A stretch of 10,895 nucleotides of DNA, from the UHGV virus genome UHGV-1779514; one strand, 5' to 3'. Source of the stretch: a virus. Position numbers and translations under genes: made by a program. Under the pieces are notes generated by a model, which saw only the letters and a list, made by a program, of their open reading frames with translations, had not been told where the DNA came from and did not search any database. Position 1 is the stretch's first letter. Each line of letters begins with the position of its first letter. Below, piece by piece: positions 1,423-5,261 of the stretch.

Positions 1423-1911
1423 CTACTCACCTCCGTTGATGCGAATGCCTGTTGCAATGCTGTTTATGATGCTGTCAGTGCATGGGGTAGAAAGCTGGGC
1501 ATCTCCAGCAATTTTCATGACATCAACATCTGCATATCGAATACCGAGGTGTATCAGACCGGCTATACCTGACTTAAGCCGAGCATTTTCCATAAACAGA
1601 TCCTTTGCCCGCTGTTTTTCTGCCTCAAGCTCAACGCGCAACTTCCCTACCGTTAGCGCAATATCCTCGTTCTCCTGGTCGCGTGATTTGATGTATTGCT
1701 GGTTCCTTTCCCGTTCATCCAGTAGTGCCAGCACGGTTTCTGGTCCGGCCAGAAATTTGAAGGCGTTGAGCGCATCAATATCCACACCGTAATCTTTAAG
1801 TTCCTGTTCACTTAACAAATCATCATCAGCTGGCAACATTAACAGGCGTTCCATTGCTGGAATTGCACGTTCCGCCGCCTCACGCAGTGCCTGGTAATTA
1901 ATTTCGCTCAC
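1423..1911 (-). CDS. Ead/Ea22-like phage protein, 162 aa
   Basis: ORF track entry. N-terminus MSEINYQALREAAERAIP is paralogous to the upstream gene's MTIDYQVLREAAEKATP; also a shared ...LALLDE / ...LELLGE segment. GTG start at 1911..1909 overlaps the upstream TGA (GTGA). Family assignment from memory. Confidence 0.6.
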   Translation of the reverse strand: MSEINYQALREAAERAIPAMERLLMLPADDDLLSEQELKDYGVDIDALNAFKFLAGPETVLALLDERERNQQYIKSRDQENEDIALTVGKLRVELEAEKQRAKDLFMENARLKSGIAGLIHLGIRYADVDVMKIAGDAQLSTPCTDSIINSIATGIRINGGE

Positions 1912-2675
1912 TGGTTGCCTCCTTTGCGAAGCTGGGCAGCAAAGTCAACTAACCACTCAGTCATTTCAACCTTCCCTACCAGATCTGAACCAGGGTGCAT
2001 ACAGCAATCACTCTGCGCCGCTTTGAAAGCCTTATACTCATATTCTTGGGCCACCAGATTTTTTGCAGCTTCTATAGCAGCATCCAATCCCTGCGCCCGC
2101 ACTTCAGCCAGGCATTTGCGAAACTCGGAAACGTACTGTTCGACGCTCATTCCCCAGCTAAGTGGACATTCATTGAATGTTTCGCCTTCGTGCTCTTCAT
2201 CAGGTAGCTCTTTGGTAAAGAACTCACGCTCAATGGCGTGGAGTGTGTCAGCAAAACGACGTAAGTTACTCAAACCTACCGTAATGGAGAATTCAGGAGC
2301 ATCACATCCGACGCCCATCTGCTGATAAACGGCGGTTTTGAAGGCCTTAAGCCCCGCATTTTCCGCCACCAGCGCCGCGAGATTAGTCTCAAGCTCTGCA
2401 ATTCGACACATAGCATCAATATTTGTGTCCTCCAGGCACTTAATTTCACCAAGCAGCTCCAGTGCAACCTTTGGGTTGAACGCGGCAACATGACGAGCGT
2501 TGTTCTCTGCATTTTTCTGTCCATCAAAGCCGGTCCATTTGATAACGTCTTCACATCGTTCATCACCGGGCGTGTGCACCGCATAAGTACCAGTATCCGT
2601 CGAAATAAATGCGACCCATTCGTCTGGTGTTGCCTTTTCTGCCGCCTCACGCAGTACCTGATAGTCAATTGTCAT
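1908..2675 (-). CDS. Ead/Ea22-like phage protein, ~255 aa
   Basis: Track ORF 1908..2684. I prefer the ATG at 2675..2673: it overlaps the upstream gene's TGA (ATGA), has GAAGG 9 nt upstream, and gives an N-terminus (MTIDYQVLREAAEKA) that aligns with the downstream paralog. Confidence 0.6.
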   Translation of the reverse strand: MTIDYQVLREAAEKATPDEWVAFISTDTGTYAVHTPGDERCEDVIKWTGFDGQKNAENNARHVAAFNPKVALELLGEIKCLEDTNIDAMCRIAELETNLAALVAENAGLKAFKTAVYQQMGVGCDAPEFSITVGLSNLRRFADTLHAIEREFFTKELPDEEHEGETFNECPLSWGMSVEQYVSEFRKCLAEVRAQGLDAAIEAAKNLVAQEYEYKAFKAAQSDCCMHPGSDLVGKVEMTEWLVDFAAQLRKGGNQ

Positions 2676-3298
2676 TCTCGCCATCCTTCACAGTTGTAAT
2701 CACTACAGCCTTCAAAATCATATGGGCTGTACTGCCAGGTTATTTTTCCGCAATGCGGACAATTCCAACGCACCTTCCCGCTTCGCGACTTCTTTCTTCT
2801 GTTTTGCTTTTTCAACCAGTCAGGCATGACCAAACCTGCGCCCTGAACCATTGTTCTGCGGTTAAAATTATTGATATTGAACGTCCGCCGCTTTGCTGCA
2901 TCGGCAATGGAAAATGGCAACCAAACTATTCCTGGTTCGTTTTTGTTGGCGACGCTAAAGATGGTTGCTTTACTGAAGTCATCGGTTGGCAATCCACCGT
3001 GTTGAAGCCAGTAAACATCGTTGCCGTTCCAGCTACCTTTTTTGTAGGCCACATACGCAGTGCAATCTGACTCAATCAGGCTTTCTGTAGGGATGTACTG
3101 GCAATCAACGTGCCACACAGCCATTGCATCCACACTATCGGCACAAACAGGCTGATCGATATCTCGCCCACAATTCCAGGCTTTTTGGGCTTCTTCCAGC
3201 GTGTAAACATGAGCGCGATCGATATCAGAACTGTAACCATTGCCGTTATGGCAATGGAATGAGGCGTTATTACCCACAGTTTCACGCAAACACATCAT
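2672..3298 (-). CDS. hypothetical Cys/His-rich phage protein, ~208 aa, with C-terminal CPHC...C..C zinc-ribbon-like motif
   Basis: Track ORF 2672..3352 begins with GTG and would overlap the upstream gene by 40 nt. ATG-ATG at 3298..3293 lies 14 nt after the upstream stop and is the more likely start. No family recognised. Confidence 0.5.
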   Translation of the reverse strand: MMCLRETVGNNASFHCHNGNGYSSDIDRAHVYTLEEAQKAWNCGRDIDQPVCADSVDAMAVWHVDCQYIPTESLIESDCTAYVAYKKGSWNGNDVYWLQHGGLPTDDFSKATIFSVANKNEPGIVWLPFSIADAAKRRTFNINNFNRRTMVQGAGLVMPDWLKKQNRRKKSRSGKVRWNCPHCGKITWQYSPYDFEGCSDYNCEGWRE

Positions 3299-3831: not shown

Positions 3832-4560
3832 TTATTCCTGAATGCGCTTAAACTCGATTACCCACACCCAGGGATTAGCGTTCCAGCTTTCTTCACCATA
3901 GATGGATTCCCACAGGCGCTGGAACGCAACCTTGGCCATTGCGAAATCCCCCTTGGGAGTAAGGAATGTTCCCGGGTGATCAGGAAGCAAACTTCCAGCA
4001 GGCGGAACGCCCTCATCCCTTGCATCGCATTCGCTGATATTGTTCAACCGCTCAACGCGCACGTTGGTAATTTCCAACAGGATGCGTGATGCCCAGCGCG
4101 GCATGTGAATTGATGGACGCCACCCACCATCAAACTTTTCATTCACAGTGTGAGGTTTCCAGTCGGCATCATCGGGTATCGACCATAAACCGTAATCACC
4201 AGGCTTTTGCTCACAACTGGCCCGATAAATCCTTGCTGCGTTCTTCTCATCGCCACGACAAAGGTTGTCGTTCCAGTCCACACTGCAACCATCTTCATTG
4301 CCTAATATCGCCCATGTTTCACGAACCCAAATTCGATCGCCGACGATACCAAAGGGGCAATTGAAAACACTGCTTACACCATCAGCCCCGTACCACTGAA
4401 AACCTGCACCAATTTCCCTAACCATCACTGGTGCTTCTGGACCAACTTCCGCAGGCTGATTTTTCATTATCCGCCGCGTCTGCGTTTTCCTTCCTTCGAG
4501 GATGGCTCGGACCATCTCATCGTTGAAAATCATGCCGCGCTCTTTCACTTCGCCTTTCAT
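3832..4560 (-). CDS. ASCH-domain-like (PUA-fold) protein, 242 aa
   Basis: ORF track entry. N-terminal MIFNDEMVRAILEGRKTQTRR matches the G-x-K-T-x-x-R opening motif I associate with ASCH domains; C-terminal WVWVIEFKRI is also typical. True start may be the second ATG (Met10). GGGGGA lies 3 nt before the first ATG. Confidence 0.5.
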   Translation of the reverse strand: MKGEVKERGMIFNDEMVRAILEGRKTQTRRIMKNQPAEVGPEAPVMVREIGAGFQWYGADGVSSVFNCPFGIVGDRIWVRETWAILGNEDGCSVDWNDNLCRGDEKNAARIYRASCEQKPGDYGLWSIPDDADWKPHTVNEKFDGGWRPSIHMPRWASRILLEITNVRVERLNNISECDARDEGVPPAGSLLPDHPGTFLTPKGDFAMAKVAFQRLWESIYGEESWNANPWVWVIEFKRIQE

Positions 4561-4569
4561 GCATCCCCC

Positions 4570-4656
4570 TTACCCATGCGCGACGATGCCGCAAAAAGTG
4601 ATAGAGAACAGCCAGAAATAGATCGCGGCCATAATGATTTTGAATGCCGTGTTCAT
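4570..4656 (-). CDS. 28-codon hydrophobic micro-ORF (MNTAFKIIMAAIYFWLFSITFCGIVAHG), probable single transmembrane helix
   Basis: Hand-translated; below track cutoff. Minus-sense reads CAGGAGCTGAAAAT-ATG (AGGAG, 8-nt spacer). TAA stop at 4572..4570 is 9 nt before the ASCH-like ATG. Confidence 0.35.
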   Translation of the reverse strand: MNTAFKIIMAAIYFWLFSITFCGIVAHG

Positions 4657-4684
4657 ATTTTCAGCTCCTGTGATTGATTGGATA

Positions 4685-4714
4685 CATGCCGCGCCTTACG
4701 GCATGTTTTTATTT
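4685..4714 (+). terminator. intrinsic-terminator-like hairpin on + strand (CATGCCG-cgcctta-CGGCATG followed by TTTTTATTTT)
   Basis: 7-8 bp GC-rich stem then a T-rich run on the + strand only. No + strand gene ends here; minus-sense flank is not U-rich. Confidence 0.4.
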
Positions 4715-4726
4715 TCACTTTCTCTG

Positions 4727-4757
4727 GTTTAAAAATCAAGATTTATTAGAGCAATTA
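4727..4757. repeat. downstream copy of ~30-bp imperfect direct repeat (GTTTAAAAAT-N7-TTATTAGAGCAAT) at the cassette boundary
   Basis: 13-mer TTATTAGAGCAAT at 4743..4755 is identical to 6884..6896; the flanking TTTAAAAAT is also shared. About 26 of 33 positions match. Overlaps the HAD gene stop codon. Confidence 0.6.
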
Positions 4758-5261
4758 TTGTTGATGGAGAAGCGCGTTTTCATACTCCCTGACCATTAAC
4801 GTAAGTACGCCGTGACTCCTGAAAACACGCGCCACTTCAATCTTATCTTCCAGCGCGAACGCAATTTTACTTAGACCAATTTTCTTCAGGAGATCAATCT
4901 TTGCTGGACCGTCATTTCTGTCATCGGTGGCAGGACGCATAGATAGCAAAGGCTCCGCCCCATTTGTTACGTGCTTACGCAACCAGGCTCGTGTTTTATC
5001 CCTTGCTATCTCACAGCGCCCGGTTACAAACCAGAGGGTGTAAATGCCGGACAACTGGCGCACCATATCAATAACTGGAGTGATGGGAGCATCAGTGTCA
5101 CAGGCAAGGTTAAACTCGTTCCAGTGCTCTGTTAATGCACCTTTGCCAGGTGGTGGAAGTAAATGCAGTCTGTCTTCCGTTGCCTCTGATATCGTCCCAT
5201 CAATATCTACTATGACGATGTACGGACGTTCCTGGTGTGCGTGTTTATTGAAAATACTCAA
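4755..5261 (-). CDS. HAD-superfamily phosphatase, 168 aa (possibly polynucleotide 3'-phosphatase or nucleotidase type)
   Basis: ORF track entry. Motif I VDIDGT (DxDGT) near the N-terminus, later TGR and ALEDK acidic motif. TTG start at 5261..5259 with AGGAGG 4 nt upstream and an in-frame TGA just before it. Subfamily is a guess. Confidence 0.6.
   Translation of the reverse strand: MSIFNKHAHQERPYIVIVDIDGTISEATEDRLHLLPPPGKGALTEHWNEFNLACDTDAPITPVIDMVRQLSGIYTLWFVTGRCEIARDKTRAWLRKHVTNGAEPLLSMRPATDDRNDGPAKIDLLKKIGLSKIAFALEDKIEVARVFRSHGVLTLMVREYENALLHQQ

What the first reader, a model, noticed from the sequence alone, without database searches (positions are those of the whole stretch)
4570..4656. 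Unannotated 28-codon hydrophobic micro-ORF with a strong Shine-Dalgarno, coupled to the ASCH-like gene
MNTAFKIIMAAIYFWLFSITFCGIVAHG is essentially one transmembrane helix. It has AGGAG at ideal spacing and its stop sits 9 nt before the next gene. Small membrane peptides in phage accessory regions can act as toxins, modulators of host membrane proteins, or leader peptides. It is below the ORF-track cutoff and easily missed.
Basis: seen in the sequence. Interest (0 to 1): 0.5.

Follow-up and report, generated by a model that had tools for sequence, protein, structure and literature searches.

The report
Small membrane-peptide gene in phage P1
The 28-codon reading frame is a real, conserved gene for a tiny one-helix membrane peptide that opens a repressor-controlled early operon of P1-like phage-plasmids; it is missing from the reference P1 annotation and its function is unknown.

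Summary
On the minus strand, 4656..4570 encodes MNTAFKIIMAAIYFWLFSITFCGIVAHG. AGGAG lies 8 nt before the ATG, and the TAA lies 9 nt before the next gene.

The window is a P1-like phage-plasmid. The ORF sits between pap and pmgT, downstream of the C1 operator Op88/OpmgT, and is not annotated in the reference P1 record.

Within the near-identical P1 clade, conservation is uninformative. Diverged P1-like elements from Salmonella, Cronobacter phage JK004 and metagenome assemblies settle the question. At the same position they carry 46-53 aa homologues with the same start and the same N-terminal helix. Synonymous sites are near saturation while non-synonymous change is low (P1 vs L099: pS 0.80, pN 0.19, P = 2.6e-5).

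The same layout recurs in every lineage: operator and promoter, a 5' hairpin of differing sequence, a CAATCA spacer, GGAG and ATG. The stop overlaps the next start or lies at most 9 nt before it. The downstream cargo is interchangeable.

P1 carries the tail-less form. An exhaustive profile search found no relatives outside this small family, and no known family matches.

The function is inferred only: a membrane-inserted helix made on derepression, whose translation probably also feeds the next cistron. Type I toxin and leader-peptide readings are not supported.

The parts
4739..4755 (-). C1 repressor operator (P1 OpmgT, formerly Op88), ATTGCTCTAATAAATCT. It overlaps the pap stop codon and the -35 hexamer.
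   Evidence: Annotated as a protein_bind feature in NC_005856 at the homologous position. The core is conserved in all diverged lineages.
4711..4739 (-). Predicted sigma-70 promoter (P1pmgT): -35 TTGATT at 4739-4734, a 17-nt spacer, and -10 GAAAAT at 4716-4711.
   Evidence: Predicted promoter in the P1 record. The same TTG(A/T)TT, 17 nt, xAxAAT arrangement is seen in the Salmonella, JK004, L092-94, L099 and L101 loci. No transcription start has been mapped experimentally.
4684..4706 (-). Leader hairpin ACATGCCG-TAAGGCG-CGGCATGT, beginning 5 nt after the -10. It probably forms the 5'-terminal stem-loop of the mRNA. Read on the + strand, followed by TTTTTATTTTC, it also scores as an intrinsic terminator.
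   Evidence: Terminator scan and folding. The stem is essentially invariant across 83 P1-clade loci, with two singleton changes, while the loop varies. Other lineages have a hairpin of unrelated sequence at the same place, including compensatory changes.
4671..4680 (-). CAATCAATCA spacer between the hairpin and the SD, conserved in all lineages. Its role is unknown.
   Evidence: Alignment of the leaders.
4665..4669 (-). Shine-Dalgarno AGGAG, 8 nt before the ATG.
   Evidence: Invariant in 83 P1-clade loci, and GGAG in the other lineages. Mostly unpaired in the predicted fold.
4570..4656 (-). The 28-codon small membrane-peptide gene, including its stop codon. This window carries Cys at codon 22, where the clade consensus has Gly.
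4558..4569 (-). RBS (GGGGGA) and ATG of the next gene (pmgT, ASCH-like, 4560..3832), starting 9 nt after the TAA. This is the proposed translational-coupling junction and the left edge of the swap zone.
   Evidence: Recombination junctions fall 4 nt after the TAA in hsd-type loci and about 50 nt into the next gene in P7.

Best explanation
The ORF is a genuine protein-coding gene. It is the tail-less, 28-aa P1-clade member of a small orphan family (28-53 aa) found only in P1-like phage-plasmids of Enterobacteriaceae.

Shown: the gene is the first cistron after the C1 operator Op88/OpmgT and its overlapping promoter. One layout is conserved in every lineage: operator/promoter, hairpin, CAATCA spacer, open GGAG, ATG. 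The first ~24 codons, a hydrophobic helix with M1, K6, A11 and W15 invariant, are under purifying selection. The C-terminal tail is variable or absent. The stop codon overlaps the next start or lies at most 9 nt before it, whatever the next gene is.

Inferred: in a lysogen C1 keeps the promoter off. On induction or infection, the transcript starts at or near the hairpin, which would act as a 5' stem-loop stabilising the mRNA. The peptide is translated efficiently and inserts into the inner membrane with its N-terminus inside (K6 in; acidic tails of the long forms out). Terminating ribosomes then re-initiate on the next cistron, so this constant cistron also sets translation for whichever cargo gene sits in the variable region.

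The peptide's own activity most likely depends on helix-helix contact with a membrane protein, or on a direct effect on the membrane early in lytic growth. Which of these applies is not known.
For: Identity of the locus: the 501-nt region is 97-99% identical to phage P1 between pap and pmgT, and matches 889 of 5426 complete E. coli genomes, mostly on plasmids.

Homologues sit at the same position:
- Cronobacter phage JK004, 53 aa.
- Salmonella P1-like plasmids, 46 aa, which lack pap.
- Metagenome-assembled elements, 48 and 53 aa.

The alignment has M1, K6, A11 and W15 invariant.

Codon evidence over the first 25 codons:
- P1 vs L099: pS 0.80, pN 0.19 (Fisher P = 2.6e-5). Differences by codon position are 7:3:14.
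- P1 vs Salmonella: pS 0.84, pN 0.26 (P = 6e-5).
- Salmonella vs L093: pS ~1.0, pN 0.32 (P = 3e-7).

Leader conservation: the operator, the -35/17 nt/-10 arrangement, the hairpin and the SD are present in all lineages. The hairpins have unrelated stem sequences. Compensatory pairs occur between sister lineages: A-U to G-C in L092 vs L093, and G-C to A-U in JK004 vs L101.

Stop/start junctions are ATGA (JK004 clade), TGATG (L099), TAA+5 nt (Salmonella) and TAA+9 nt (P1).

The gene is retained when its neighbours change: pmgT, P7 upf86.8, convergent hsdR (25 loci), or humD-phd-doc directly.

Helix: the AlphaFold model gives residues 2-23 at pLDDT 86-89.

Chance: an ORF with both an SD and this hydrophobicity arose in 0 of 20,000 shuffles.
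Against: - There is no direct evidence of transcription start, translation or membrane location. No paper in the searchable library mentions this ORF.
- Within the P1 clade alone the data do not show constraint. There are 17 substitution events with N:S about 10:7 (P = 0.19 against neutrality). Variable sites split 5:5:6 over the three codon positions. Intactness by chance has P = 0.37.
- The P1 form lacks the tail present in all other lineages, so it could be a decaying remnant.
- In 2 of 85 loci foreign DNA is joined at codon 20.
- Several C-terminal chimeras exist in the protein database.
- The coupling and the 5' stem-loop role are inferred from geometry only.
Confidence: 0.7

Rival explanations
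1. The P1-clade ORF is a decaying, truncated remnant of the longer 46-53 aa gene. It is kept only because it lies in a young, recombining flank of a hotspot, and the peptide no longer functions.
For: P1 alone lacks the hydrophilic tail. The within-clade N:S ratio is not distinguishable from neutral, and variable sites are spread evenly over codon positions. Non-synonymous variants are commoner in hsd-context loci (7 N vs 4 S sites). Chimeric and variable C-termini occur.
Against: The helix core, SD and ATG are intact in 83 of 85 loci. Most of the ~870 plasmid matches are 90-100% identical at peptide level. In operon-context loci the three non-synonymous variants are all singletons, whereas the synonymous ones are common. 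In the long forms the tail is the least constrained part (Salmonella tail Nd 8 vs Sd 1), so losing it need not abolish function.
Confidence: 0.13
2. It is a pure translational 'starter' or leader ORF. Only the act of translating it matters, loading ribosomes or opening the RBS of the next gene. The peptide sequence is irrelevant.
For: Stop/start overlap or a gap of at most 9 nt is seen in every lineage. In the predicted P1 fold the pmgT RBS pairs with the last codons of the ORF.
Against: Amino-acid sequence is conserved while synonymous sites are saturated, and second codon positions change least. The ORF is kept in 25 loci where the next gene is a convergent hsdR with nothing to couple to. 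No terminator or alternative structure lies between the ORF and the next gene. The overall fold is not unusual (z = -1.06).
Confidence: 0.1
3. It is a type I toxin. The hydrophobic peptide would kill or arrest the cell. An antisense RNA ending at the + strand terminator (4684-4716) over the 5' UTR would act as antitoxin.
For: It has the size and hydrophobicity of TisB/ShoB/DinQ-type toxins (own knowledge). A canonical intrinsic terminator lies on the opposite strand, just upstream of the SD.
Against: The scan found no promoter-like site on the + strand within or downstream of the ORF. The T-run that makes the hairpin a terminator is absent in the Salmonella, JK004 and L092 lineages, while the hairpin itself is kept. 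The SD is open rather than sequestered. The sense promoter is already controlled by a protein repressor. There is no hit to any toxin family in Pfam, NCBIfam or PADLOC.
Confidence: 0.05
4. It is a chance ORF in a 5' UTR, or in the 3' flank of hsdR, and is not a gene.
For: An ORF of at least 28 codons arises in 32% of shuffles. The segment is also found downstream of hsdR in R124/EcoDXXI-type loci.
Against: An ORF with both an SD and this hydrophobicity arose in 0 of 20,000 shuffles. The frame is conserved with pS much greater than pN across lineages. The copies in IncF plasmids next to hsdR are relics cut by IS1 at codon 3.
Confidence: 0.03

Closest known systems
44-aa 'membrane protein' YP_009293555.1 of Salmonella phage SJ46, and the PGAP hypothetical proteins WP_001312275.1 and WP_029399105.1
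   Same: They are the same ORF in the same frame. The C-terminal 28 residues are identical apart from G22C.
   Different: Those models start at an ATG inside the leader hairpin, with no SD. Between that ATG and the real start there is a TAA in this window and 12 other loci, a 2-nt insertion in 7 loci and a 4-nt deletion in 2. The 44-aa start is therefore not conserved and is blocked here.
The 46-53 aa homologues in Salmonella P1-like plasmids (e.g. pCFSAN058588), Cronobacter phage JK004 and metagenome-assembled P1-like elements
   Same: They share the position after pmgS(-pap), the operator/promoter/hairpin/SD layout, the start codon and the N-terminal helix (F/I-K-x4-A-x-Y/F-x-W). All are closely coupled to the next gene.
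   Different: They carry a 20-25 residue polar, mostly acidic tail that P1 lacks. Their next gene is a ~104-aa wHTH-like protein rather than pmgT. JK004_94 is annotated from an internal start as 38 aa.
Type I toxins of Enterobacteria (TisB, ShoB, DinQ, ZorO, Hok)
   Same: A very small, single-helix hydrophobic peptide on a mobile element, whose expression is kept off in the carrier state.
   Different: There is no antisense RNA promoter, no sequestered SD and no sequence family match. Control is by the C1 protein repressor.
Small single-pass membrane regulators (MgrB, AcrZ, MgtS-type; own knowledge)
   Same: Similar size, one helix, predicted N-in/C-out orientation, and conservation concentrated in the helix.
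   Different: There is no sequence relation. It is phage-encoded, and no partner protein is known or testable here.

Membership tests
Orphan small-peptide family of P1-like phage-plasmids (defined here, alignment A1) | N-terminal helix with M1, K6, A11 and W15 and an aromatic residue at position 13 | tested here: met
   The window peptide has all of these residues. The profile search recovers the P1 forms at E = 5e-10 to 8e-9.
Orphan small-peptide family of P1-like phage-plasmids (defined here, alignment A1) | First cistron after the C1 operator/promoter, hairpin and GGAG, downstream of pmgS(-pap) | tested here: met
Orphan small-peptide family of P1-like phage-plasmids (defined here, alignment A1) | Polar C-terminal tail of 20-25 residues | tested here: not met
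   The P1 clade stops after residue 28. It is filed as the tail-less variant.
Type I toxin-antitoxin toxin | Antisense or divergent small RNA antitoxin with its own promoter | tested here: not met
   There is no + strand promoter-like site in 4300-5000. The + strand T-run is not conserved outside the P1 clade. No Rfam family matches. RNA data would still be needed for certainty.
Type I toxin-antitoxin toxin | Toxin mRNA folded so that the SD is hidden until processing | tested here: not met
   The SD and AUG are unpaired or weakly paired in all lineages.
Type I toxin-antitoxin toxin | Growth arrest or membrane damage on expression | not testable with these tools
   Needs inducible expression.
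Type I toxin-antitoxin toxin | Sequence match to a known toxin family | tested here: not met
   Pfam, NCBIfam, PADLOC and PHROGs give no significant hit.
Attenuator or leader peptide | Terminator/antiterminator or RBS-masking alternative structures between the leader ORF and the regulated gene | tested here: not met
   There is no sense-strand terminator after the ORF. The gap to the next start is 9 nt or less. The fold z-score is -1.06.
Attenuator or leader peptide | Peptide sequence free to vary apart from regulatory codons | tested here: not met
   pN is much lower than pS over the helix.
Translationally coupled upstream cistron | Stop codon overlapping the next start codon or within about 10 nt of it | tested here: met
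   ATGA, TGATG, +5 nt and +9 nt in the different lineages. It is absent in hsd-context loci.
Translationally coupled upstream cistron | Downstream translation depends on upstream translation | not testable with these tools
   Needs start-codon or stop mutants with a reporter.
Holin / pinholin | Located in a lysis cassette next to an endolysin, under late control | tested here: not met
   The neighbours are pap and pmgT, and control is by the early C1 operator.

The most novel reading that the evidence does not exclude
The peptide is an active early effector of P1-like phage-plasmids. It would be a conserved 'gate' gene at the left edge of their main cargo hotspot, acting on a host inner-membrane target at derepression, for example by blocking a transporter, sensor or defence component, excluding superinfection or depolarising the membrane. 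At the same time it would serve as the fixed translational entry point for whatever cargo is swapped in behind it.
Probability: 0.2. Interest if true: 0.6.

Novelty: new member of a known kind. Interest (0 to 1): 0.4.

Why it matters
P1 is one of the most used and best annotated model phages, and P1-like phage-plasmids are common carriers of resistance genes in E. coli and Salmonella. The reference P1 map lacks this gene, and where other records annotate it, most use an unsupported start.

The gene marks the constant left border of the pmgT-humD variable region, 'region 8' of PMC9603915. Type I restriction systems and other cargo are exchanged there.

A conserved, repressor-controlled membrane peptide at that border is a concrete, cheap target for experiments on early P1 functions. 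It is also a way into how cargo genes in the hotspot are expressed. It is not a new kind of system.

Tried and rejected
The 44-aa form found only near-identical E. coli copies.
- Rfam gave only noise, with E > 1.
- Pfam, NCBIfam, PHROGs and PADLOC gave nothing significant for the peptide or its homologues.
- Using Pap as an anchor in genome contigs found only two close relatives. In IMG/VR it found only relatives of at least 93% identity. These served for within-clade statistics, which proved uninformative.
- Pap homologues below 40% identity belong to unrelated T1-like phages and were not pursued.
- A single-structure covariation count on the leader alignment was not run. MAFFT did not place the unrelated stems in register, so each leader was folded separately instead.
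- Literature searches for pmgT, Op88, P1 ribosome profiling and the P1 transcriptome found no mention of this ORF.
- The antisense ORF 4576..4677 (+) was considered and rejected. Its third positions coincide with the sense first positions, which are not the most variable, and it is not open in relatives.
- The IncF copies next to hsdR were considered as independent evidence and rejected. They are IS1-truncated relics that lack the start codon and promoter.

Full report
**1. The observation**

The minus strand of the window reads CACAGGAGCTGAAAAT-ATG...TAA-GGGGGATGC-ATG.
- The ORF 4656..4570 translates to MNTAFKIIMAAIYFWLFSITFCGIVAHG.
- AGGAG (4669-4665) lies 8 nt before the ATG.
- The TAA (4572-4570) lies 9 nt before the ATG of a 242-aa ORF (4560..3832).
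- The peptide is strongly hydrophobic (GRAVY 1.41; best 19-residue window 2.25). It is the most hydrophobic of the 33 ATG-ORFs of 25-35 aa in the window.
- In 20,000 dinucleotide shuffles of the 194-nt intergenic stretch, an ORF of this length arose in 32%. One with an SD arose in 0.4%, one this hydrophobic in 0.07%, and one with both in none.

The description is accurate and the combination exceeds chance.

**2. Where it is**

The 501 nt around the ORF are 97-99% identical to phage P1, P7, SJ46 and other Punavirus records. They match 889 of 5426 complete E. coli genomes, almost always on plasmids. The window is therefore a P1-like phage-plasmid with its genes on the minus strand.
- The upstream ORF (4755..5261) is pap, a HAD/PNKP phosphatase.
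- The downstream ORF is pmgT, which PGAP names 'ASCH domain-containing protein'.

The reference P1 record annotates several features in this intergenic region:
- the C1 repressor operator OpmgT (former Op88), equivalent to window 4739-4755;
- two predicted sigma-70 promoters, including P1pmgT with -35 at 4739-4734 and -10 at 4716-4711.

It annotates no CDS between these and pmgT. SJ46 and some PGAP records annotate a 44-aa protein in the same frame, starting from an ATG inside the leader hairpin. Between that ATG and the SD-preceded ATG there is a TAA in this window and 12 other loci, a 2-nt insertion in 7 loci and a 4-nt deletion in 2. The 28-codon start is the conserved one.

**3. Close relatives are uninformative**

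I collected 85 P1-clade loci anchored on pap.
- The 28-codon ORF is intact in 83.
- In two loci (L060, L080) unrelated DNA is joined at codon 20.
- There are 16 variable sites, spread 5:5:6 over codon positions. They amount to about 10 non-synonymous and 7 synonymous events, counting a TAA-to-TAG change.
- Against neutral expectation this gives P = 0.19. The chance that 17 neutral events spare the start codon and create no stop is 0.37.
- By contrast, the adjacent pap 3' end varies mostly at third positions.

On this clade alone one could not call the ORF a gene.

**4. Distant relatives decide it**

Pap at 72% identity led to Cronobacter phage JK004. At the same place, after the same operator, JK004 has a 53-aa ORF starting MHLIFKLAITAFYAWMLTVV... 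Searching with that peptide and with a Salmonella form found further members:
- a 46-aa form in 85-93 kb Salmonella P1-like plasmids, which lack pap;
- 53-aa forms in three more lineages (L092; L093/L094; L101);
- a 48-aa form (L099) close to P1: MNTAFKLAMAAFYFWIFCIAFNGLVKAAPT...

All lie in the synteny ppp-pmgQ-pmgR-pmgS-(pap)-small ORF-cargo. The alignment has M1, K6, A11 and W15 invariant, with a hydrophobic run to about residue 24.

Over the first 25 codons:

| Comparison | pS | pN | Fisher P |
|---|---|---|---|
| P1 vs L099 | 0.80 | 0.19 | 2.6e-5 |
| P1 vs Salmonella | 0.84 | 0.26 | 6e-5 |
| Salmonella vs L093 | ~1.0 | 0.32 | 3e-7 |

For P1 vs L099, differences by codon position are 7:3:14. 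Synonymous sites are near saturation while the protein is kept, which is the signature of a translated gene.

The tails differ.
- Within the Salmonella clade the helix shows 0 non-synonymous and 1-2 synonymous changes. The tail shows 4-8 non-synonymous and 1-3.5 synonymous changes.
- An AlphaFold model of the 53-aa form gives a confident helix at residues 2-23 (pLDDT 86-89) and a low-confidence tail.

P1 carries just the helix.

**5. The conserved layout**

Every lineage has the following elements in order:
- the operator core ATTG(C/T)TCTAATAAAT overlapping TTG(A/T)TT;
- 17 nt, then an xAxAAT -10;
- a hairpin starting 4-8 nt after the -10;
- a CAATCA-rich spacer, then GGAG and ATG.

The hairpin stems are unrelated in sequence: ACATGCCG (P1), AGGCCAC (Salmonella), GGCCGC (JK004) and TTGGCAGTCAC (L092). 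All fold, leaving the SD and AUG open. Sister lineages show compensatory changes: A-U to G-C in L092 vs L093, and G-C to A-U in JK004 vs L101. In the P1 clade the stem is essentially invariant (two singleton changes) while the loop varies.

Because the hairpin begins where transcription should start, I infer that it is a 5'-terminal stem-loop of the mRNA. Such structures are known to protect E. coli mRNAs from 5'-end-dependent decay (established knowledge, for example the ompA leader). No start site has been mapped.

On the + strand the P1 hairpin is followed by TTTTTATTTTC and scores as an intrinsic terminator. That T-run is simply the complement of the A-rich -10 region, and it is absent in the other lineages. 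Termination of antisense transcripts is therefore at most a P1-clade extra.

**6. Relation to the next gene**

The stop/start junctions differ by lineage:

| Lineage | Junction |
|---|---|
| JK004 clade and L101 | ATGA |
| L099 | TGATG |
| Salmonella | TAA + 5 nt |
| P1 | TAA + 9 nt |

This is the standard geometry for translational coupling. In the P1 fold, the pmgT RBS pairs with the last codons of the ORF, but the fold as a whole is not exceptional (z = -1.06).

The partner gene is not fixed:
- pmgT in P1;
- upf86.8 in P7, where the homology break lies about 50 nt into the gene;
- a wHTH-like 104-aa gene in the other lineages;
- humD-phd-doc directly in L100;
- in 25 of 85 loci, a convergent type I hsdR joined 4 nt after the TAA.

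The literature already lists pmgT-humD as 'variable region 8' of P1-like phage-plasmids (PMC9603915). CRISPRi finds pap, pmgT, pmgU and pmgV non-essential (PMC10695390). The small ORF itself was not targeted. The small gene is thus the last constant element before a cargo hotspot.

**7. What it is not**

- Type I toxin. There is no + strand promoter-like site. The antisense terminator is not conserved, the SD is open and control is by a protein repressor. No family match exists.
- Leader or attenuator peptide. There is no terminator or alternative structure after the ORF. The peptide sequence is itself constrained.
- Holin. The genomic context and the timing of expression are both wrong for one.
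- IncF copies next to hsdR. These are relics cut by IS1 at codon 3.
- Member of a wider family. A profile of the family, searched exhaustively against 1.84 billion representative proteins, returned 11 sequences, all of this family. It is an orphan family confined to P1-like elements.

**8. Most likely mechanism and remaining doubt**

- Shown: a conserved, selected coding frame for a one-helix peptide. It is the first cistron of a C1-operator-controlled unit, with a conserved leader and tight junctions to the next gene.
- Inferred: expression only on derepression; N-in membrane insertion (K6 inside, acidic tails outside); mRNA stabilisation by the 5' hairpin; ribosome hand-over to the cargo gene; and a helix-mediated action on a membrane target.

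The main rival is that the tail-less P1 form is a decaying remnant (section 3). The invariance of the SD, ATG and helix across hundreds of plasmids argues against this, as does the weak constraint on the tail in the long forms.

**9. Verdict**

This is a real small gene missing from the reference P1 annotation, and a new member of a familiar kind: phage-encoded small membrane proteins. Its function is unknown. Interest is moderate.

Noticed in passing
window 4684-4716 (+ strand); L006 2473->2451: The leader hairpin plus T-run is a canonical intrinsic terminator on the strand opposite to all nearby genes. In relatives with a convergent type I hsdR after the small ORF, it is the only canonical terminator the scan finds downstream of hsdR. 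There, the Op88 promoter would fire head-on into hsdR on induction.
   Followed up: partly
window 4566-4569 (junction 4 nt after the TAA); L004-L006: This is a recombination junction. In 25 of 85 loci a type IC-like hsd cassette replaces pmgT exactly 4 nt after the stop. Many IncF plasmids carry the same hsdR flank with the small ORF cut at codon 3 by IS1 (about 324 plasmid records in the 90-95% identity band). This explains the old 'downstream of EcoDXXI/R124 hsdR' similarity notes in the P1 record.
   Followed up: partly
window ~4508-4560: P7 upf86.8 and P1 pmgT are different genes that share their first ~17 codons. The homology break at about window 4508 suggests that cargo swapping uses the 5' end of the first cargo gene as a crossover site.
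   Followed up: no
window 4671-4680; all related loci: A CAATCAATCA motif between the hairpin and the SD is conserved in all lineages, although the flanking leader sequence diverges. It could be a translational enhancer or a binding site. It is unexplained.
   Followed up: no
L089 3087-3248 (Cronobacter phage JK004); L003 1697-1831 (SJ46): These look like mis-annotated starts. JK004_94 is annotated as 38 aa from an internal ATG, whereas the conserved SD-preceded start gives 53 aa. The SJ46 and PGAP models of 44 aa start inside the hairpin.
   Followed up: yes
L090/L091/L096 2073-2141 (tail of the Salmonella 46-aa form): The periplasm-facing tail changes faster at non-synonymous than at synonymous sites between close Salmonella plasmids (Nd 4-8 vs Sd 1-3.5), while the helix has none. 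This could reflect relaxed or diversifying selection. The counts are small.
   Followed up: partly
L060 3663-6504; L080: Unrelated AT-rich DNA with almost no long ORFs is joined at codon 20 of the small ORF in two IMG/VR contigs. The nature of the insert was not identified.
   Followed up: no
window 3832-4560 vs P1 84488-85417: pmgT is a 242-aa ORF here, but is annotated as 309 aa in the reference P1, where it overlaps pmgU by ~196 nt. This may be a frameshift or an annotation difference. Pfam does not detect an ASCH domain at E<=1, although PGAP uses that name.
   Followed up: no
window 1423-1911 and 1908-2684 (- strand): Two adjacent Ead/Ea22-like paralogues (Pfam PF13935, E = 8e-33 and 4e-19) lie in the cargo region downstream of pmgT. 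This gene content differs from reference P1 (pmgU, pmgV, upfM-O).
   Followed up: no
L100 2501-2614: This P1-clade element has the whole pmgT-lxr variable region deleted. The small ORF, with a new 9-residue tail (37 aa), is followed directly by humD-phd-doc.
   Followed up: partly
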